From an uncultured Phycisphaerales bacterium (lineage in GTDB: Bacteria; Planctomycetota; Phycisphaerae; Tepidisphaerales; Tepidisphaeraceae): DNA of 64,000 nucleotides. A program made the position numbers. The first letter of the stretch is position 1; each line of letters begins with the position of its first letter. Of the stretch, positions 18,001 to 27,000 are shown in pieces. The DNA lies in the NCBI GenBank assembly GCA_963755915.1, contig CAVWLP010000002.1, positions 3,680,001 through 3,744,000 on the forward strand. Reading direction: 5' to 3'.

Positions 18001-21000
18001 TCGGAGAGACCATCGGAAATGGCGGCGTCACCTACTCCGATGTCAGCAATCCAACCGGTGACAAGTCAGATTACGTAGACTGGACCATCCTCATCACCCA
18101 CGAGCTTAGCTCAATAGCGGGCACCAGCAGTCTGAACAACCAGACGACCAGCTCCACCAATCCGGGAGTTCGAGGCTATTTCATTTGTCCCACCGCGCCC
18201 GTCTCGACAGTGAACTGCGATTTTTCAGACTACTCCTGTCACCCCAGGCTTATGCCGGATTTGGGAACGCCCGATTACCTGAATCAGGTCCCCGTCAGCA
18301 GGACCAACCCCGGCTATCTCCCTTATCTAAAGCCCTACAAGCTGGCGCAAATACAACGATCGACCGAAATCGCATTGATCTTCGATGCCTCGGTGGCGTC
18401 TCAATACGGGGCCTTTAACGTCGCGTCGGTTGCCTTTGCGATTGATAATGGAAACGTCTACAACACCCATACAACCTGTCTTTCGGATCAATACGGTTCA
18501 ACGTACAACTCCCAGATGATCGATTCCGGCCAGCCGATTGACCCCTACGCCGGGAAAGAGCCGGCAACGCCCGTCCCCAGCGACTTGAACGCCGACACCA
18601 CCGACAACTGGGGAAACATCCGCTTTCGGCATCTCGGAGAAACCGCGGCCAACGCCCTGATGGTCGACGGCCACGTCGAGGTGTTCCATTTCAATCCGCA
18701 TGAGCCCGCGACGAGCATGACCGACCTGTTGCGAAAGAACATCAACGTCAACCTTTCGACCCCGTAACATGCTCCCGCCGGTTAGCGAATCCCGGCAAGC
18801 GTCTTTCGCTACAAAACCAGCCCATCGGTAGAAATCTCGATTTTTCGCTTGATTTTTCGAATTTATGTGAAACAATTCATGGTCTCAAGACGTTTAGTCG
18901 ATGGAGAAAGCTATGCGGCAACATTGGTATCCAGAAAATATGAGTGAGACAGCCAAACGATGCGGGTCATTCCGCCTCGATTTGGCCAATTTATAAACTC
19001 CCTGCCGCGTCGGCCGGGAGTTCTTCCCGGCTGAAAGTAATCAACACTTAAATCCGGGACGCAATTGGAAATACAGCCGGGCGCTTGTTGCGTCCTGCTG
19101 CCAAACAAGAGAGGTCCGCGGAATAACCCCGCGCTGATCCAATCTCGGTTCGCGCCTGTAGCTCAATTGGCAAGCAGCGCCGCGCTTACATCGCGGAGGT
19201 TGCTGGTTCAAGTCCAGCCTGGCGCATGAAAGGACAAAGGCCGTGAAAACGCCTGGAAAATCAGGCCTTTTACGCTGTTAGCTCAGAGGCAGAGCACCCG
19301 CCCGATAAGCGGGAGGCCGGAGAGTCGAGACCTCCACGGCGTACTGAAAATCTCGCACTGGTAGCTCAATCGGATCAGAGCTCCGGTCTACGAAACCGGA
19401 GGTTGAAGGTTCGAATCCTTCCCAGTGCACTGGTGTCGTAAGTGATTGTATCTAATTACGATGTATTTGTGGTTGCTGATAAGGTTTCGCACTCGTAGCT
19501 CAACGGCGGAGCCACCGGCTCTTAACCGGTGGGTTGCAGGTTCGAATCCTGCCGGGTGCATGAAAGGAGAATGTCAGATGAATCGGTTCAGGAGAAAACG
19601 GTGCAAATAATTCCGCACCGGTAGCTCAACGGAATCAGAGCAACCCTCTTCTAAAGGGTCGGCTGGGGGTTCGAATCCCTCCCGGTGCATGCGGACAGTG
19701 CGCACCGGTAGCTCAATGGCAGAGCCGCCGCCTTTTAAGCGGAACCATGCAGGTTCGATTCCTGCCCGGTGCATGAAGAGAAAAGTTTCGGTTCAGTAGC
19801 CCAACCGGCAGAGGCGCCTGACTCAGAATCAGACTTAGTGCAGGTTCGAATCCTGCCTGGACCATAGAAAAAAGTTGCGGTAGCTCAATCGGATTGGCTC
19901 TGTCTCATGAATCATCGCGCGGCCAGACGAAGTGGATTTCGTCCTCGGGCAAGGAGCGACGACGAGCAGTATTGAACGGAAATACGGCGAGGAGGAGCGA
20001 CGCCGGCCGAGGACGAAAGACACGAGTCGGGCCCGCGAGGATTCATGAGACAGAGCCGAGAGCGCGGCTCTCCGAAGGCCGAGGTTGAAGGTTCGATCCC
20101 TTCCCGCGACGTGAAAGAAAAACATTGGGCCCGTCGTCTAACGGGAAGACTCCTGGCCTGCAACCAGGAAATGAGGGTTCGATTCCCTCCGGCGTCCATC
20201 GGATTGCTTCGGTAGCCCAACCGGAAGAGGCGCGTGATCGAGGTTCACGTCAGTGCAGGTTCGAGTCCTGCCCGGAGCACTGAAAGCGTTTCGCCGCGGT
20301 AGCCCAATGGCAGAGGCGGTGGTCTCAAGAACCGTTTGTGTGTGGGTTCAAATCCCACCCGCGGCATGAAAGGAGAATCCGATGAGTAGCGGCTCATCAC
20401 AAAAAAATAGCGAAGACTCCGATTGCGGAGGGTTGGCCGAACGGTAAGGCATCCGTCTCGAAAACGGACATGGCGCACGCGCCTTGGGGGTTCGAATCCC
20501 TCACCCTCCTTCCGACTCGCGCAGAGCGCTCGGCCTGCCGTGAGCGAGCGCAGCGAGTCGAACGGAGGGTTGGCAGAGTGGCCTAACGCGCCGGGTTGCT
20601 AACTCGGAAGGCTTTGAAAAGGGCCTCGAAGGTTCGAATCCTTCACCCTCCGCTGGATTTTGGGCGGTACGAAAATGGTTCGTCCCGCGAAGTGTTCTTT
20701 GACAATCAGGTGGCGTATTGCCGTCATAGCTCAGCGGAATGAGCGTCCGGTTGTCAACCGGAAGGCCATGGGTTCAACCCCCATTGACGGCGTTTTTGTG
20801 GATTCAGCTCCAAGGTAGAGCGGGGGCCTGAAGAGCCCCAGGGCTTGGTTCGATTCCAGGAGTCCACATTGAAGCGATGCGTCGGTAGTTCAGCGGTCGA
20901 ACACCGCTATGCCAATGCGGAGGCCCGGGTTCTATTCCCGGCCGGCGCACTGAGATTGACGAGCAGTGATAACTCAGCCGGGAGAGTGCCGGTCTTCCAA

Positions 21001-24000: not shown

Positions 24001-27000
24001 GATGACGCCGACGATTCTGCTGGCCCTGATCGAGCGGATGAGCCCTCAGGAACTGATTAACAACGTCGCCTCGCTGACGAAGCGCGGCGCGATGGACAAT
24101 CCGGACCTGAAGGCGTTGATCGACCAGAAGCTTGAGCAGGCCCAAACGGCCCAGCGGGTTAGCGGGCTCAAGGCGCAGAAGGCGATTGAGTCGGCCGGCG
24201 CAACGGTGTCGCCGGACGTGAAGGCGAAGCTCGAAAGCGTCGCCGACGCGCAGATCAAGGCTAAGGGCCGGATCGACCGTCCCACGGCGCTGCTCATCGA
24301 CAAGTCGGGCTCGATGTCGCTGGCGATTGAACTCGGCAAGCGCATCGGCGCCCTGATTTCCGCGATCTGCCGCGCGGAGCTCTTCGTCTACGCGTTCGAC
24401 ACGATGGCTTACCCCATCGAGCGCGGCGGCGACGACCTTGCTTCGTGGGAAAAGGCGCTGGTTGGCATCAAGGCCGGCGGCGGAACGAGCTGCGGAGTCG
24501 CCGTCGAGGCGATGCGCATCCGCAAGCAGTACGTCGAGCAGATCATTCTCGTCACCGACGAGGGTGAAAACACGGCGCCGCTGTTTGTGCCCACGCTGCA
24601 GAAGTACCGGGAAACGGTCAAGGCCGTTCCCAACATCTGCATCGTTCGCGTCCCGCGCAGCGTGACGACGGTTGAGTCGAATTGCCGCGCGGCTGGTTTG
24701 ATGGTCGATGTGTTCCAGTTCGCCGGCGACTACTACTCGCTGCCGAACCTGGCGCCGCTCCTGAGCAAGCCGAGCAAGCTCGAATTGCTCATGGAGATCC
24801 TGGAGTACCCTCTGCCGAAGCGGAGGTCGGCGTAATTCAGCGGCGCGGCTCAAAAAGCCCGCGCCGCTTTTGGAAGGTCGTTATATGCGCTCGGACATGG
24901 CCAAAGTAATCGTGGAACGGCCCCGCAGAGGCGGCGGAATCCGTTATCCGCGCAGTCACCCGGATTCCCATCGATTGGACATCGAGGATTTCCGCAGTCG
25001 CCAGGGCATGCGCCGGCCGTGGCTCAGTTCCCACGCAAAGGGATTGAATGAAAACCTCGCGCCCCTGGAGCGCTATCTGCGAACCCACGTGGGCCGCCCG
25101 TGGGATGACATTTACAGCGAGATTTGCGAGCACATGAATCGCAATTCCGCCGTTCAACTGCACATCTGGCAGCACCTAATGCAATTTGTCTGCAGAGATG
25201 TTTATGTCACGCTCGGTTTGGTCAAGCCGTCATGGTGGCACGGCGCGGGAAGGTTTTATGTCGACCCGAGCACGGGAATATTGCGCGAAAATCTGTTCAG
25301 GTGGCGCTACCGGCGGCCCGAACCGAAGCCCGATCCAAACCGCGTTCCAGCGAGCGAGGATATCGAATATCGGCGAATTGAGGGCATCTGGTATGAATTG
25401 CGCTTGGCGCCGATTCCGAAGTTTCGCATCGGCTACGACTTCGCGATCAGAAAACATCTGACCGAAATCAGCGACGATCTCCTTCACAAGTTTTACGACC
25501 GACAGGTTTACGCCGCGAGGAAACGCCAATTGAACAAGAAAGAAATCAGAAAACTTGGACTGACAACGGCAGGGACAAAATCTTGAAAAAGGAACTTCTT
25601 CAAACTCTTAAGAATCTTGCTGCCGCGGAGAATGCGTTCGTCGACATCGAATTCCTCGCCCCGGTCCTGCGCGGCTCCGGCGTCGCGGTAAAAATTGCCG
25701 GGGTCCGCTGCAACGTCGCGATTGATCCGCCCGATTTCCAGGGCTGGGGTGTCTTTCGCGCCGATTCCCTGACGAGCGCCGCTTTGCTTCGCGAAGCGAC
25801 CCCCACGCAGCGGCGAAACTATCTGCGTCTGCTTCCCTCGGTCCGCCTAATCGTTTGTGGCGGAAAGGCGAGCACTGCGATGGCCCTTCCCGCCAATCCC
25901 TCGGACACGCGCTTCTATTTTGCGGGACCGGTCTTTGTGCAGCTTTGCCCGAAAATCGATTTGTTCACGACGATAATGTGCCGGTTCTATGCCGCTCAAT
26001 TTTGGTTCGACAGTCTGGATTCGCGCACTGATCCCGCCGCCGCAGCGTACTTGCGGCGTGAACTGACGAACATGACCGAACCGAAAAATCTTTCCCGTAG
26101 GGGCGTAACCCGTGGCGAGCGATTCGCCTACGCCTTTGAATTTTCGCGCCGCGCCAGCGCAATTCTCGCCGACCGGCGGCATCGCGCCGACGTCCGCCTA
26201 AAGCAGGCGCTGGCCCATGCCGGCGCCATCCTGACCGATTTTTCCGAAGACCACGATTTGTTTCGCGTCGCTTATTTGGTCGACGGCCGCCGTCATCTGA
26301 GCAACGTGCGCAAGGACGATCTCACAGTTCAATCCGCCGGCATTTGCCTCGCCGGCCAGGACCGGAATTTCGATCTCGCGAGCCTGGTAGGAGTCCTTCG
26401 CGAGGGCGATTCCATGTCCAGATTTCCCCGCCGGCGGTAATCTGATTTCGAGGACGCTACATGCCCGGAGCCTTCCATCACGAATCCCTCTACCGCGGCC
26501 CCGAAGCGCTTGCGCGGCTGGCGTCGCTGCGCATCACCCTCTGCGGCGCCGGCGCGATCGGTTCGAACCTGGCCGACAACCTCGTCCGCCAGGGCGCGGC
26601 GAAACTGCGCGTCATCGACGACGACCGCGTCGAGCAGCACAACATTTCCACGCAAATCTACGGCGAATCAGATGTAGGCGTCTGGAAGGTCGAAGCCTTG
26701 CGGAACCATCTTTTCCGCGCCTGCGGCATCGAAATTGACGCCGTGCGGAAAAGACTCACCGCGCAAAACGCCGGATCGCTTCTGAAAGATGCCGATCTGG
26801 TTATCGATGCGCTCGACAATTCGCAGTCGCGCCAGATCGTGCAAGACCATGCGCGAGCAACCAATGTCCCGTGCATTCACATCGGCCTGTACGAAGACTA
26901 CTGCGAATCGATTTGGGACGAGCAATACCGCGTGCCCGCGGATCGTGCGAATCAGCATGACGTTTGCGATTATCCGCTGGCCCGGAACCTGGTACTGCTC

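What a model noticed while it worked through the whole genome (the two positions that open the first line are those of the whole stretch)
18860..26440. A tRNA L-array runs into a Ro60-Y RNA module
A supernumerary array of 27 tRNA genes is followed on the same strand by an 86-aa ORF, four Y-RNA-like genes, a divergent Ro60 homologue and a conserved 285-aa ORF. The same composite, with the same tRNA order, occurs in another genus and in independent metagenome contigs. Giant-phage contigs carry the module beside other tRNA clusters. The cassette is therefore a mobile, probably phage-derived unit that couples spare tRNAs to a Ro60 particle.
Evidence so far: Array: calls 3, 56, 93. Its tRNAs are 54-79% identical to housekeeping ones. 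G015 has the same order, with a 71-73% identical Ro60-like gene. Metagenome loci L087, L093, L097, L127 and L142 have the same tRNA order ending in His 0.4-1.8 kb before the gene. 5 of 57 loci have 10 or more tRNAs, and every tRNA found in 80 loci is upstream on the gene's strand. The 7 viral loci have 1-16 upstream tRNAs, and 6 of 7 have both small partners. A 595-kb GenBank phage record has the same module. Paper searches that link Ro60 with tRNA arrays found nothing.
(Added by a program. Inside this text positions count along the whole contig: contig position 3,680,001 is position 1 of the stretch shown here. "Call 12" and the like, gene names such as g00115 and contig names such as C1 are that model's own, and its searches are not shown. 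The text may have been shortened before it was handed on; [...] marks where a part breaks off. The agent that wrote the report below was given it as the finding of a first reader that could run no searches.)

Follow-up and report, generated by a model that had tools for sequence, protein, structure and literature searches.

The report
tRNA array joined to Ro60–ubiquitin-like cassette
A block of 27 spare tRNA genes is followed by a 5-kb cassette that pairs a divergent Ro60 RNA-surveillance protein and four tRNA-like Y RNAs with a small ubiquitin-like protein and its activating enzyme, a pairing I found in no paper searched.

Summary
There are 27 same-strand tRNA genes at 19152-22079. They are followed by an 86-aa ORF, four Y-RNA-like genes, a Ro60-fold protein and a 285-aa ORF. 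The same tRNA order with the same junction (tRNA-His, then the 86-aa ORF) recurs in G015 and in five independent contigs.

- The cassette runs to 27127 and includes a ThiF/E1-like gene (26461-27114). A sister genome, G001, has the array at the same site but lacks exactly 22084-27127.
- The 86-aa protein looks ubiquitin-like. 69 of 70 homologues end in AV[F/Y]G-stop. A predicted complex places that tail in the E1 ATP site (score 0.76 against 0.02 for the best control). Two phage versions add a JAB peptidase.
- The 285-aa protein has OB/S1-like barrels and an invariant cysteine tail.

In 160 bacterial loci I counted 439 tRNA genes upstream of the Ro60-like gene and none downstream. Array and cassette are nevertheless separable.

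Most likely this is a mobile translation-stress island: spare tRNAs plus a Ro60–Y RNA surveillance particle controlled by ubiquitin-like chemistry. "Phage-derived" is not shown, because the window's protein nests inside a planctomycete clade. There are no usable expression data for the cassette.

The parts
19152..22079 (+). L-array: 27 supernumerary tRNA genes (Val, Ile-like, Arg, Lys, Arg, Lys, Leu, Ala, Leu, Leu, Ser, Ser, Asp, Phe, Gly, Gly, Thr, Met, Gln, Gln, Asn, Glu, Pro, Tyr, Trp, Cys, His)
   Evidence: ARAGORN 26; Rfam 26, union 27; 54-79% identical to housekeeping isoacceptors, all anticodons redundant; same order in G015, G010, L004, L008, L102, L119, L124
19272..19343 (+). Degenerate tRNA-Ile(GAU)-like gene (C at position 33, atypical T loop)
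   Evidence: Rfam tRNA 51.2 bits; missed by ARAGORN; cloverleaf fold; relatives have Ile-GAU at this position
19879..20104 (+). A 28th tRNA gene, Arg(CCG), split by a 162-bp MITE-like element (19896-20057, 29-nt inverted ends)
   Evidence: Inverted repeat I2 and tRNA-like pieces in families D1, D4 and D12; many 84-88% identical copies of 19896-20057 in G000, G001, G006 and G011; G001 is contiguous across the site; contigs of runs X6 and X7 skip 19893/4-20059; relatives carry intact Arg-CCG here
22084..27127 (+). The cassette as a block: present here, replaced by 30 bp at the same site in sister genome G001
   Evidence: BLAST of window 16600-29300 against G001. The array matches up to 22083 (85-87% identical in this last segment, 87-96% in the other array segments) and the downstream flank from 27128 (92%), with nothing between. 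No target-site duplication is seen
22125..22385 (+). 86-aa ubiquitin-like candidate with a C-terminal Gly (…RPEAVFG-stop), preceded by AAGGAG
   Evidence: 69 of 70 homologues end AV[F/Y]G-stop; 11 invariant columns; predicted complex with the E1-like protein scores 0.76 against a best control of 0.02, with tail residues 80-86 at the E1 G-loop; no Pfam, NCBIfam, PHROG or PADLOC family
22398..22564 (+). Y RNA-like gene 1
   Evidence: 28-nt basal stem, 96% complementary (I1); CCCAACG motif; fold -113.5 kcal/mol for the 183-nt stretch 22390-22572
22583..22773 (+). Y RNA-like gene 2 (contains a T-arm GGUUCGAAUCC)
   Evidence: stem I5
22806..22969 (+). Y RNA-like gene 3, YrlA type (T arm, hairpin, D arm)
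   Evidence: Rfam YrlA 50.7 bits, E 2.5e-9. In an alignment of 8 relatives, 94.7% of cells pair and 19 of 35 pairs have compensatory changes, against 8.8±2.0 in shuffles (0 of 500) and 4-6 when slid
22991..23160 (+). Y RNA-like gene 4 (T arm plus an anticodon-arm-like hairpin)
   Evidence: partial YrlA match 23036-23090
23165..24835 (+). Divergent Ro60 homologue (HEAT-repeat ring plus vWA domain with a complete MIDAS motif). The likely start is ATG 23186, giving 549 aa
   Evidence: AlphaFold2 pLDDT 82.6; Foldseek PDB ranks 1-12 are all Ro60/TROVE, E 7e-11 to 1.5e-8, TM 0.44-0.67; PDB profile hits are Ro60 only; invariant D372, S374, S376, T434, D458; Pfam TROVE does not detect it
24870..25586 (+). 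238-aa conserved protein of no known family; its position within the module varies
   Evidence: 42% identical in L004 at the same place, 28-31% in cyanobacteria between the 86-aa gene and Ro60, 51% in L119 before the 86-aa gene; no PDB, Pfam or NCBIfam match
25583..26440 (+). 285-aa protein: two small OB/S1-like barrels, a long helix, a beta-meander, and an invariant tail GICLxGxDxxFDLxSLVGV (H238, C255)
   Evidence: Alignment; model pLDDT 82.9 with the tail below 50; only weak fold matches to S1/OB proteins; weak Fpg H2TH-like match, E 0.13-0.16
26461..27114 (+). Compact ThiF/E1-like adenylyltransferase (217 aa)
   Evidence: PF00899 106.7 bits against a cut-off of 28.1; PDB profile hits to ThiF-type proteins, TcdA, Uba1, MccB, MoeB and Cap2; below every NCBIfam equivalog cut-off; found with the Ro60-like gene in 47 of 80 genome loci, 23 of 80 metagenome loci and 7 of 8 viral loci

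Best explanation
Two separable, horizontally spread units are arranged as one same-strand gene train.

Unit 1 (19152-22079) is an L-array in the sense of Santamaria-Gomez et al. 2021. It is a supernumerary tRNA operon that duplicates the housekeeping set.

Unit 2 (22084-27127) is a Ro60–Y RNA cassette that I found described in none of the papers searched. It holds:
- a ubiquitin-like 86-aa protein,
- four tRNA-like Y RNAs,
- a divergent Ro60 ring with an intact vWA/MIDAS domain,
- a 238-aa protein of unknown family,
- a 285-aa OB/S1-like protein with an invariant cysteine tail,
- a compact E1-like adenylyltransferase.

Proposed mechanism, all inferred:
1. Under translational stress or attack on tRNAs, the array supplies replacement tRNAs.
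2. The Ro60-like ring, scaffolded by tRNA-mimicking Y RNAs, captures damaged or misfolded tRNA and rRNA pieces.
3. The E1-like enzyme adenylates the C-terminal Gly of the small protein. That protein is then attached to a component of the particle or its cargo, or carries sulfur to it. The cysteine of the 285-aa protein is a candidate acceptor or carrier. Either way the particle's activity would be switched or marked.

Shown here: gene content, protein folds, RNA structure with covariation, the indel boundary, and conservation of order and strand across phyla and phages.
Inferred: binding, chemistry, co-transcription and physiological role.
For: Array and redundancy.

Ro60 fold. Foldseek ranks 1-12 are all Ro60, best E 7.2e-11. 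MIDAS residues are invariant in 19 sequences.

Y RNAs:
- Rfam YrlA E 2.5e-9.
- Covariation: 19 of 35 pairs have compensatory changes, and 0 of 500 shuffles reach this.
- The motif is unique to this spot in 6.6 Mb.

Ubiquitin-like protein with E1:
- 69 of 70 homologues end in Gly-stop.
- The E1 family assignment rests.
- The predicted complex scores 0.76 against a best control of 0.02. In the tool's calibration 116 of 157 solved complexes and 2 of 215 mismatched pairs reached the mark. Runs agree in at least 91% of contacts and partner pLDDT is at least 80. Tail residues 80-86 touch E1 residues 29, 31-34, 117-121 and 141-149. The tool warns that a pass may come from memory of solved E1–Ubl complexes.
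- A Prok-JAB gene lies between the 285-aa gene and the E1 gene in phage loci L084 and L097.

One block: G001 lacks exactly 22084-27127.

Co-occurrence with the Ro60-like gene, limited by the flank held:
- 86-aa gene: 67 of 80 genome loci, 44 of 80 metagenome loci, 7 of 8 viral loci.
- 285-aa gene: 53, 30 and 7.
- E1 gene: 47, 23 and 7.

tRNA linkage:
- 236 upstream and 0 downstream in 80 genome loci (422 kb against 434 kb searched).
- 203 upstream and 0 downstream in 80 metagenome loci (230 kb against 257 kb).
- 16 of these 439 are on the opposite strand.
- Only 45 nt separate tRNA-His from the 86-aa start codon.

Literature context:
- Cyanobacterial L-arrays are induced by translational stress, and their neighbourhoods are enriched in RNA-processing and translation genes such as rtcB (PMC8421152: abstract and section 22).
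- Bacterial Y RNAs mimic tRNA, and Y RNA tethers Ro60 to PNPase (PMC4201824: abstract and passages).
Against: - Array and cassette are separable. G001 (same site) and G010 have the array alone.
- G015 has the array, the 86-aa gene and Ro60, but only a remnant of the 285-aa gene (residues 9-96). No E1 gene is found in 7.1 kb downstream, and its 86-aa homologue lacks the Gly end.
- 65 of 111 module loci show no tRNA upstream of the 86-aa gene within the DNA held. 111 of the counted 'tRNAs' lie between the 86-aa gene and Ro60 and may be tRNA-like parts of Y RNAs.
- In two phage loci (L100, L096) the tRNA clusters lie downstream.
- The 86-aa family shows no profile similarity to ThiS/MoaD of the same genomes (hhalign probability 0.15-0.2%). 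Its fold was not modelled on its own.
- No E2 was found, and no JAB in the window.
- The conserved tail of the 285-aa protein is modelled with pLDDT below 50.
- There is no promoter or terminator signal above the shuffled background.
- The only RNA-library evidence is contigs at 90-99% likeness over pieces of the array. Apart from traces over the tRNA-like Y RNA stretch (22852-23119) and short stretches of the Ro60-like and 285-aa genes, none covers the cassette, and DNA carry-over is not excluded.
Confidence: 0.6

Rival explanations
1. Hitch-hiking only. The cassette and the array are independent mobile units. They sit together because tRNA arrays or tRNA genes are preferred landing sites, or because both ride on the same larger element. 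There is no functional coupling.
For: The cassette is gained or lost as a clean 5,044-bp block next to an otherwise conserved array. Arrays occur without the cassette in G001 and G010. Many cassettes have no array within the flank held. A MITE has also landed in the array. Homing endonucleases are proposed to spread L-arrays (PMC8421152, passage).
Against: Orientation is strict: 423 of 439 upstream tRNAs are on the gene's strand and none lie downstream in 160 bacterial loci. The linkage recurs with unrelated array orders in Planctomycetota, Cyanobacteria and phages. The cassette's own RNAs mimic tRNA. No integrase, repeats or target duplication flank the cassette.
Confidence: 0.25
2. Sulfur-relay reading. 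The 86-aa protein is a ThiS/MoaD/TtuB/Urm1-like sulfur carrier. The E1-like enzyme thiocarboxylates it, and it donates sulfur to thiolate the array tRNAs or the Y RNAs. It is not a conjugated tag.
For: An E1-like enzyme and a small protein ending in Gly, with no recognisable E2. The best NCBIfam matches are ThiF, MoeB and SAMP-E1 types. Uba4–Urm1 acts both in tRNA thiolation and in conjugation (PMC7527816, abstract in a search listing). The tRNA context fits.
Against: The E1-like protein has no rhodanese domain (217 aa). No PP-loop thiolase or cysteine desulfurase is in the cassette. The C-terminus has a single Gly, not Gly-Gly. There is no profile similarity to ThiS/MoaD. All NCBIfam equivalogs score far below their cut-offs. 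JAB peptidases in the phage versions fit deconjugation at least as well.
Confidence: 0.15
3. One reading: the whole composite is a recent giant-phage import that serves phage-type counter-defence.
For: Eight phage loci carry the Ro60-like gene with tRNA genes, and 7 of 8 also carry the 86-aa, 285-aa and E1 genes. One phage sequence (L100) groups with Abditibacteriota (support 97/92). A five-phage clade is the weakly supported sister (90/94) of the Planctomycetota clade.
Against: The window's protein lies in a strongly supported clade (100/99) of five array-bearing sequences (two named planctomycete MAGs and two metagenome contigs), nested among Gemmataceae and Phycisphaeraceae sequences. The tree largely follows host phyla, and its root is only a midpoint. 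The cassette's GC content (0.56-0.66) is not distinct from the genome's 0.59. No phage structural or integration genes were seen among the ORFs of 8000-40000, though only a few were scanned against Pfam.
Confidence: 0.15
4. RiPP or microcin-C-like reading: the 86-aa product is a precursor whose C-terminus is nucleotidylated by the ThiF-like enzyme to make a translation inhibitor.
For: MccB is among the PDB relatives of the E1-like protein (E 2.8e-13). ThiF-like enzymes assemble RiPPs (PMC11256085 and PMC12250964, seen in a search listing only).
Against: The protein is conserved along a core of about 66 residues, not as leader plus core. It ends in Gly. By my recollection MccB chemistry needs Asn. 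No exporter or immunity gene is in the cassette.
Confidence: 0.03

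Closest known systems
Bacterial Ro60 (Rsr) with YrlA/YrlB Y RNAs (Deinococcus, Salmonella rsr-yrlBA-rtcBA; Chen et al. 2014, PMC4201824)
   Same: A Ro60-fold ring plus vWA/MIDAS domain. Several Y RNA genes lie directly upstream on the same strand. At least one of them has a tRNA-like T arm, hairpin and D arm.
   Different: The protein is invisible to Pfam TROVE. 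The RNA scores below the Rfam gathering score (50.7 against 69). The loop motif is CCCAACG…GACUYG instead of the GNCGAAN0-1G named in that paper. No rtcB or rtcA lies adjacent; RtcB is 1.5 Mb away. The partners here are a ubiquitin-like protein, an E1-like enzyme and two unknown proteins.
L-arrays / tRNA array units (Santamaria-Gomez et al. 2021, PMC8421152; Tran et al. 2016, PMC4758250)
   Same: 27 tRNA genes in 2.9 kb, supernumerary, patchily distributed, with conserved order among carriers.
   Different: The text of PMC8421152 does not contain Ro60, TROVE or Y RNA. It names HNH endonuclease, rtcB and dpsA as neighbours. Its supplements and figures were not seen. Here the array runs into a Ro60–Y RNA–Ubl–E1 cassette.
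Prokaryotic ubiquitin-like systems with E1-like and JAB proteins (Iyer, Burroughs and Aravind 2006, PMC1779556); sulfur carriers ThiS–ThiF and MoaD–MoeB; archaeal SAMP–UbaA and TtuB–TtuC (the last two recalled)
   Same: A small protein with a free C-terminal Gly next to a ThiF-family adenylyltransferase. A JAB peptidase is present in phage versions. The predicted tail-in-active-site complex fits this.
   Different: A single Gly rather than Gly-Gly. No detectable ThiS/MoaD profile similarity. No recognisable E2, rhodanese or biosynthetic partner. The passages of PMC1779556 that I saw list no operon with vWA or TROVE.
Phage Ro60 homologues (Thermus phage phiLo Ro60, PDB 9l5y/9kop, PMC12135203; jumbo-phage TROVE proteins, PMC7824862)
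   Same: 9l5y and 9kop are the closest solved sequences (E 0.002-0.006). Jumbo phages carry TROVE proteins as part of RNA-repair gene sets (passage).
   Different: PMC12135203 was seen only as an abstract start in a search listing. The words E1-like and ThiF do not occur in PMC7824862.

Membership tests
tRNA array unit / L-array | At least 20 tRNA genes at 2 or more per kb (definition in the abstract of PMC4758250, listing) | tested here: met
   27 genes in 2,928 bp, about 9 per kb, all on one strand
tRNA array unit / L-array | Supernumerary: duplicates housekeeping tRNAs and spreads horizontally | tested here: met
   All 26 ARAGORN anticodons also occur among the 57 dispersed tRNAs, at 54-79% identity. 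The same order occurs in G001, G010, G015 and five contigs, but at different sites
tRNA array unit / L-array | Silent operon induced under translational stress (PMC8421152 abstract) | not testable with these tools
   Only contigs of one metatranscriptome at 90-99% likeness over parts of the array
Ro60 / TROVE | HEAT-repeat ring plus C-terminal vWA fold | tested here: met
   Foldseek PDB ranks 1-12 are all Ro60, E 7.2e-11 to 1.5e-8, with alignments of 543-596 columns
Ro60 / TROVE | Match to Pfam TROVE (PF05731) above its cut-off | tested here: not met
   No Pfam hit even at E 10. A PF05731 search of the whole genome finds nothing, while the controls respond. PF25045 vWA_Ro60 reaches its cut-off in 1 of 4 homologues tested
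Ro60 / TROVE | MIDAS motif DxSxS…T…D in the vWA domain | tested here: met
   D372, S374, S376, T434 and D458 are invariant in 19 sequences
Ro60 / TROVE | Binds an adjacent Y RNA | not testable with these tools
   Adjacency only: four Y-like genes lie 5-770 nt upstream
YrlA (Rfam RF02553) | Score at or above the gathering threshold | tested here: not met
   50.7 bits against 69, E 2.5e-9. Scores of 34-42 bits in loci L044, L021 and L059
YrlA (Rfam RF02553) | tRNA-like domain (T arm, D arm) closed by a long stem, within 4 kb of Ro60 | tested here: met
   Five helices, 94.7% of cells paired, 19 of 35 pairs with compensatory changes, 0 of 500 shuffles as high
YrlA (Rfam RF02553) | GNCGAAN0-1G motif (PMC4201824, figure-legend passage) | tested here: not met
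   The four copies carry CCCAACG at that place
ThiF / E1-like adenylyltransferase | PF00899 above its cut-off, with the Gly-rich ATP loop | tested here: met
   106.7 bits against 28.1. CGAGALGS and DxDRVExxN are invariant. PDB profile E 4.8e-18
ThiF, MoeB, TcdA, UbaA (NCBIfam equivalogs) | Score above the equivalog cut-off | tested here: not met
   The best is 93.9 bits against a cut-off of 275 (ThiF). All listed models fall below their cut-offs
Ubiquitin-like / ThiS-MoaD beta-grasp | Free C-terminal Gly used for adenylation | tested here: met
   69 of 70 homologues end AV[F/Y]G-stop. It is a single Gly, not Gly-Gly
Ubiquitin-like / ThiS-MoaD beta-grasp | Beta-grasp fold or a family profile match | tested here: inconclusive
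   No Pfam hit. hhalign against 10 ThiS/MoaD proteins of this and related genomes gives probability 0.15-0.2%. The fold was not modelled alone. In the complex model its pLDDT is at least 80
E2 (UBC) | UBC fold with a catalytic Cys | tested here: inconclusive
   The 285-aa protein has invariant C255 and H238. No UBC structure appears among the matches, and the Cys region has pLDDT below 50
JAB deconjugating peptidase | Prok-JAB domain within the cassette | tested here: not met
   None among the five window proteins. Present in phage loci L084 and L097

The most novel reading that the evidence does not exclude
This would be the first Ro60–Y RNA system run by ubiquitin-like chemistry. The E1-like enzyme activates the C-terminal Gly of the 86-aa protein. 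That protein is then transferred to the OB/S1-like cysteine protein, to Ro60, or directly to RNA: to a 3' end as a protein–RNA ester, or to a base as sulfur. Damaged tRNAs or tRNA-like decoys are thereby marked for capture by the Ro60 ring, while the adjacent L-array resupplies the tRNA pool. Giant phages carry the same kit, with a JAB eraser, to keep translation running against host tRNA-cleaving defences.
Probability: 0.2. Interest if true: 0.9.

Novelty: new variant of a known kind. Interest (0 to 1): 0.78.

Why it matters
What Ro60 and its Y RNAs do in bacteria is still only partly understood. Why bacteria keep silent duplicate tRNA operons is also an open question. This locus joins the two, and it adds an unexpected third element: a dedicated ubiquitin-like protein and its activating enzyme.

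The family is large. 2,622 proteins scored E ≤ 0.001 among the 8,000 candidates scored. It occurs in named cyanobacterial strains that should be culturable, such as Moorena producens 3L, Microcoleus vaginatus and Lyngbya sp. CCAP 1446/10, and twice in the complete Abditibacteriota IAD-21 genome. The idea can therefore be tested at the bench.

If the ubiquitin-like protein proves to tag the particle or its RNA cargo, that would be a new mode of RNA quality control. It would also be a new use of ubiquitin-like chemistry in bacteria and phages.

Tried and rejected
- PDB profile searches of the 86-aa, 285-aa (whole and C-terminal) and 238-aa families gave nothing below E 0.09.
- hhalign of the 86-aa family against ThiS/MoaD: probability 0.15-0.2%.
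- ESM Atlas: no informative neighbours.
- PHROGs, NCBIfam and PADLOC name only the E1-like protein.
- My first script to find Y RNA closing stems failed, because the stems do not abut the motifs. An RNAfold-based script replaced it.
- The promoter and terminator scan gave 2 and 9 sites, against 2.6 and 11.1 in shuffles. None is usable.
- GC profile: no anomaly.
- Expression. One metatranscriptome run (X10) holds 5% of the sampled words. Its contigs lie on parts of the array at 90-99% likeness, with only traces on the tRNA-like Y RNA stretch (22852-23119) and on short stretches of the Ro60-like and 285-aa genes. This is no evidence for or against expression.
- The phylum scan for the 86-aa family found it only in G000 (1 of 301). 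It therefore gave no test of whether the 86-aa gene occurs without Ro60.
- The 23S-like Rfam hit in L059 did not reappear when only 4400-8000 was searched, so I treat it as a lead.
- Papers not held: PMC10870794 (Sim et al. 2020 review) and PMC5062991 (Burroughs and Aravind 2016). A search for PDB codes 9EGB and 9EGC found nothing relevant.

Full report
**The observation**

ARAGORN finds 26 tRNA genes on the + strand between 19152 and 22079, and none elsewhere in the 64-kb window. Rfam at gathering threshold also reports 26. It adds 19272-19343 (51.2 bits) and omits Trp 21847-21919, which appears only weakly under the tRNA-Sec model.

The genome is G000: three contigs, 6.63 Mb, 59% GC. A DUF1559 protein upstream fits a planctomycete. 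The genome has 83 ARAGORN tRNAs, and the 57 outside the array are scattered singly. Every array anticodon is also present among the scattered genes. Array tRNAs are 54-79% identical to the scattered tRNA with the same anticodon.

**The Ro60 homologue**

Pfam, NCBIfam, PHROGs and PADLOC give nothing for the 556-aa protein. Pfam TROVE finds nothing anywhere in the genome, while its control genomes respond.

Sequence searches of the PDB give only Ro60 proteins, and only weakly:
- Phage phiLo TROVE protein 9l5y/9kop: E 0.006 with the single sequence and 0.002 with a 19-sequence profile.
- Xenopus Ro60: E 0.042.
- Deinococcus Rsr: E 0.18.

An AlphaFold2 model built on that alignment has pLDDT 82.6 and pTM 0.74. 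By Foldseek it matches Ro60 structures at ranks 1-12, with E 7.2e-11 to 1.5e-8 and TM 0.44-0.67 over nearly the full length. Generic vWA domains come only after these. The MIDAS residues D372, S374, S376, T434 and D458 are invariant in the alignment.

By fold and architecture it is therefore a Ro60. By sequence profile it lies outside the curated family.

**The Y RNAs**

Four hairpin RNAs of about 165-190 nt fill 22398-23160. Each has:
- a long basal stem;
- an internal loop with CCCAACG on the 5' side and GACUYG on the 3' side;
- the sequence AGCWUACAAAC;
- a T-arm-like GGUUCGAAUCC.

The 5' motif occurs four times in the whole genome, all here, at spacings of 193, 206 and 189 nt.

The third RNA scores 50.7 bits (E 2.5e-9) against Rfam YrlA, below the gathering score of 69. 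I aligned it with seven relatives from five other loci. The consensus has five helices: basal stem, inner stem, T arm, hairpin and D arm. 94.7% of cells pair, and 19 of 35 pairs show compensatory changes. Column shuffles give 8.8±2.0 (0 of 500 reach the observed value), and slid partners give 4-6.

The motif GNCGAAN0-1G that Chen et al. 2014 describe for YrlA (passage) is not present. A divergent RNA motif thus accompanies a divergent protein.

YrlA-like hits at 34-42 bits also lie in cyanobacterial and Abditibacteriota loci: upstream of the Ro60-like gene in L044 and L059, and just past the E1-like gene in L021.

The ORF at 26461-27114 is a ThiF/E1-like adenylyltransferase:
- PF00899 scores 106.7 bits against a cut-off of 28.1.
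- A PDB profile search hits ThiF-type proteins, TcdA, Uba1, Uba4, MccB, MoeB, ThiF and Cap2.
- It scores below every NCBIfam equivalog cut-off.

A BLAST of 16600-29300 against relatives shows that the same-genus genome G001 has the array at the same site. It matches up to window 22083 and again from 27128 (92% identical). Thirty unrelated bases stand in place of 5,044 bp, and there is no target duplication. The unit that comes and goes is therefore 22084-27127, running from the 86-aa gene to the E1-like gene.

Of 70 homologues of the 86-aa ORF read from the loci, 69 end in AV[F/Y]G directly before the stop. The exception is G015. The conserved core is about 66 residues with 11 invariant positions.

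A predicted complex with the E1-like protein scored 0.76 in the median of three runs, against 0.02 for the best of three controls. Runs agreed in at least 91% of contacts, and partner pLDDT was at least 80. In the tool's calibration, 116 of 157 solved complexes and 2 of 215 mismatched pairs reached the mark. Residues 80-86 of the small protein touch E1 residues 29, 31-34, 117-121 and 141-149. These include the Gly-rich ATP loop. The tool warns that such a pass can reflect memory of solved E1–Ubl complexes, so it shows likeness and not binding.

In phage loci L084 and L097 a Prok-JAB protein lies between the 285-aa gene and the E1 gene.

Against the ubiquitin-like reading, there is no profile similarity to the ThiS/MoaD proteins of this and related genomes (hhalign probability 0.15-0.2%).

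**The other two proteins**

The 285-aa family has 31 invariant columns, among them the tail GICLxGxDxxFDLxSLVGV with H238 and C255. The model has pLDDT 82.9 for residues 1-248. It shows two small beta-barrels, a long helix and a three-stranded meander. The conserved tail is below pLDDT 50.

Fold searches give only weak, recurrent matches to S1/OB-type RNA-binding proteins:
- Exosome cap subunits, RNase II/Dis3L2 and bS1 in Foldseek PDB, best E 1.2e-3.
- Phage S1-like proteins in BFVD, E 4.3e-4 but TM 0.15.
- A weak profile match to the H2TH region of Fpg, E 0.13-0.16.

I read it as a probable nucleic-acid-binding protein with a reactive cysteine tail. An E2 role is possible but not shown.

The 238-aa family has no relatives in any library. 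Its position moves within the module: after Ro60 here and in L004, between the 86-aa gene and Ro60 in cyanobacteria, and before the 86-aa gene in L119.

**Distribution**

The Ro60-like protein has 2,622 relatives at E ≤ 0.001 among the 8,000 candidates scored. The best 120 are 66-100% identical.

In species-representative genomes, 158 stretches encode a relative and the best 80 were kept. They come from Planctomycetota, many filamentous Cyanobacteria, Abditibacteriota (two copies in the complete IAD-21 genome) and one Acidobacteriota MAG.

Among relatives of G000 the gene is in 3 of 41 genomes: G000, G015, and G018 at a contig end. The 86-aa family is in 1 of 301 genomes sampled from the phylum.

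G014 is flagged as unpublished.

Seven IMG/VR contigs of 37-390 kb and the 595,163-bp record LR756511.1 carry the gene.

Within the DNA held, co-occurrence with the Ro60-like gene is as follows:

| Partner gene | Genome loci (of 80) | Metagenome loci (of 80) | Viral loci (of 8) |
|---|---|---|---|
| 86-aa | 67 | 44 | 7 |
| 285-aa | 53 | 30 | 7 |
| E1-like | 47 | 23 | 7 |

Many loci are cut by contig ends, so these are lower bounds.

**Link to tRNA genes**

| Loci | ≥1 tRNA upstream | ≥5 | ≥10 | tRNAs upstream | On opposite strand | tRNAs downstream | DNA searched, up / down |
|---|---|---|---|---|---|---|---|
| 80 genome | 65 | 11 | 5 | 236 | 4 | 0 | 422 / 434 kb |
| 80 metagenome | 39 | 10 | 7 | 203 | 12 | 0 | 230 / 257 kb |
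| 8 viral | 8 | 3 | 2 | 49 | 0 | 31 (in L100 and L096) | 81 / 82 kb |

One caution applies. In 111 loci with the 86-aa gene upstream of Ro60, 296 tRNAs lie upstream of the 86-aa gene, in 46 loci. A further 111 lie between the 86-aa gene and Ro60, where some may be tRNA-like parts of Y RNAs.

The exact window order, from …Arg-UCU Lys-UUU Leu-CAG through to Tyr (Trp) Cys His and then the 86-aa gene, recurs in G015 (29 tRNAs), L004 (25 within the flank), L008 (29), L124 (29), L102 and L119. G010 has 28 tRNAs in the same order but no cassette in 4.3 kb downstream. Cyanobacterial and phage arrays have other orders.

**Origin**

I built a maximum-likelihood tree of 38 Ro60-like proteins. I chose 45 loci plus the window. 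Eight were dropped because the best alignment segment covered fewer than 450 residues, which removed most of the Microcoleus-type rows.

- The window groups with L102, L004, L008 and L124 in one clade (support 100/99). All five members have arrays. The clade is nested among Gemmataceae and Phycisphaeraceae sequences.
- Abditibacteriota and one cyanobacterial group form their own clades.
- Phage sequences fall in at least three places: L100 beside Abditibacteriota (97/92), L101 alone, and five phages with two metagenome contigs (100/98). That last group is a weakly supported sister of the planctomycete clade (90/94).
- The root is only a midpoint.

The array-plus-cassette composite with this tRNA order thus seems to have arisen once. 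Later it lost the cassette in G001 and G010, and part of it in G015, where the 285-aa gene is a remnant and no E1 gene lies in 7.1 kb. Phages and bacteria have exchanged the module. A phage origin of the window's copy is not shown.

**How it probably works (inference)**

Known facts, as seen in papers:
- Y RNA tethers Ro60 to PNPase for decay of structured RNA, and bacterial Y RNAs mimic tRNA (PMC4201824, abstract and passages).
- The Salmonella RNA-repair operon is regulated by damaged tRNAs (PMC7790460, abstract in a search listing only).
- The Anabaena L-array is induced when translation is impaired and aids survival. L-array neighbourhoods are enriched in RNA-processing and translation genes (PMC8421152, abstract and section 22).

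Putting these with the anatomy here, I propose a translation-stress island. The array replaces tRNAs. The Ro60-like ring with its tRNA-like Y RNAs captures damaged or misfolded translational RNA. The ubiquitin-like protein, activated by the E1-like enzyme, switches or marks the particle or its cargo. Phage versions add an eraser (JAB) and, in L084, a ribosome-recycling-factor homologue. Nothing in this paragraph is demonstrated.

**Literature**

- No paper holds both 'tRNA array' and 'Ro60'.
- Searches combining TROVE or Ro60 or Y RNA with ubiquitin-like, ThiF, E2-like, MoeB or adenylyltransferase found no paper on bacteria that links them. They found an Asgard-virus preprint that lists a Ro60 gene and three ThiF genes separately (passages).
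- PMC8421152 contains none of the words Ro60, TROVE or Y RNA.
- The passages I saw of the 2006 catalogue of prokaryotic ubiquitin-like operons list none with vWA or TROVE.
- Two papers that could pre-empt this were not held and were not read: Burroughs and Aravind 2016 (PMC5062991) and Sim et al. 2020 (PMC10870794).
- No supplements were read.

**Verdict**

I rate it a new variant of known kinds, with high interest.

Noticed in passing
window 19879-20104: A 162-bp MITE-like element (19896-20057, 29-nt inverted ends) has split a tRNA-Arg(CCG) gene of the array. Copies at 84-88% identity are scattered in G000, G001, G006 and G011. G001 and contigs of two other runs lack it at this site.
   Followed up: partly
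window 19790-19864, 20206-20280, 20293-20366: The three array tRNAs with Leu anticodons are only 74-75 nt and fold without the long variable arm. The housekeeping Leu tRNAs are 82-86 nt. The short form is kept in G010, G015, L004, L008 and L124 and in cyanobacterial arrays. Which synthetase charges them is unclear.
   Followed up: partly
L059 7779-7861; L066 8181-8276; also L048, L018, L079, L039, L044, L081: An element of about 100 nt matches bacterial 23S rRNA positions 1071-1167, which by my recollection is the L11/GTPase-associated region. It scores 55.1 and 48.4 bits. In four loci it lies downstream of the Ro60-like gene, directly before the 285-aa gene where that gene is held. In four others it lies inside the upstream tRNA array. 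It may be an rRNA mimic. None was seen in the window, and the hit did not reappear in a narrower search.
   Followed up: partly
L084 11917-12450 and 15755-16204; L097 16275-16682: Giant-phage versions of the module carry a ribosome-recycling-factor homologue just after the Ro60-like gene (L084) and a Prok-JAB peptidase before the E1-like gene (L084, L097).
   Followed up: no
window 21460-21570: Where relatives have tRNA-Glu(CUC), the window has a 22-nt inverted repeat hairpin (21489-21510 with 21538-21559). The tRNA appears to have been replaced or lost.
   Followed up: no
window 17614-18791: The DUF1559 / N-methyl-motif gene (17748-18767) just upstream of the array is absent from the matching site in G001. 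Its nearest G001 copy lies on another contig at 72% identity. This is a second indel beside the array.
   Followed up: no
window 23060-23125; L004 5751-5929; L008 5698-5895: The fourth Y RNA type carries a hairpin shaped like an anticodon arm: a 5-bp stem and a 7-nt loop of the form CU-NNN-AA or CU-NNN-AU, with a different 'anticodon' triplet in each locus.
   Followed up: no
L046 and L083 (AP024152.1): The complete Abditibacteriota IAD-21 genome holds two full copies of the module, at about 0.31 Mb and 6.9 Mb.
   Followed up: no
L196 (G015:C278): G015 keeps the 29-tRNA array, the 86-aa gene and the Ro60-like gene. The 285-aa gene is a remnant, no E1 gene lies within 7.1 kb, and its 86-aa homologue has lost the C-terminal Gly. 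The cassette looks to be decaying.
   Followed up: partly
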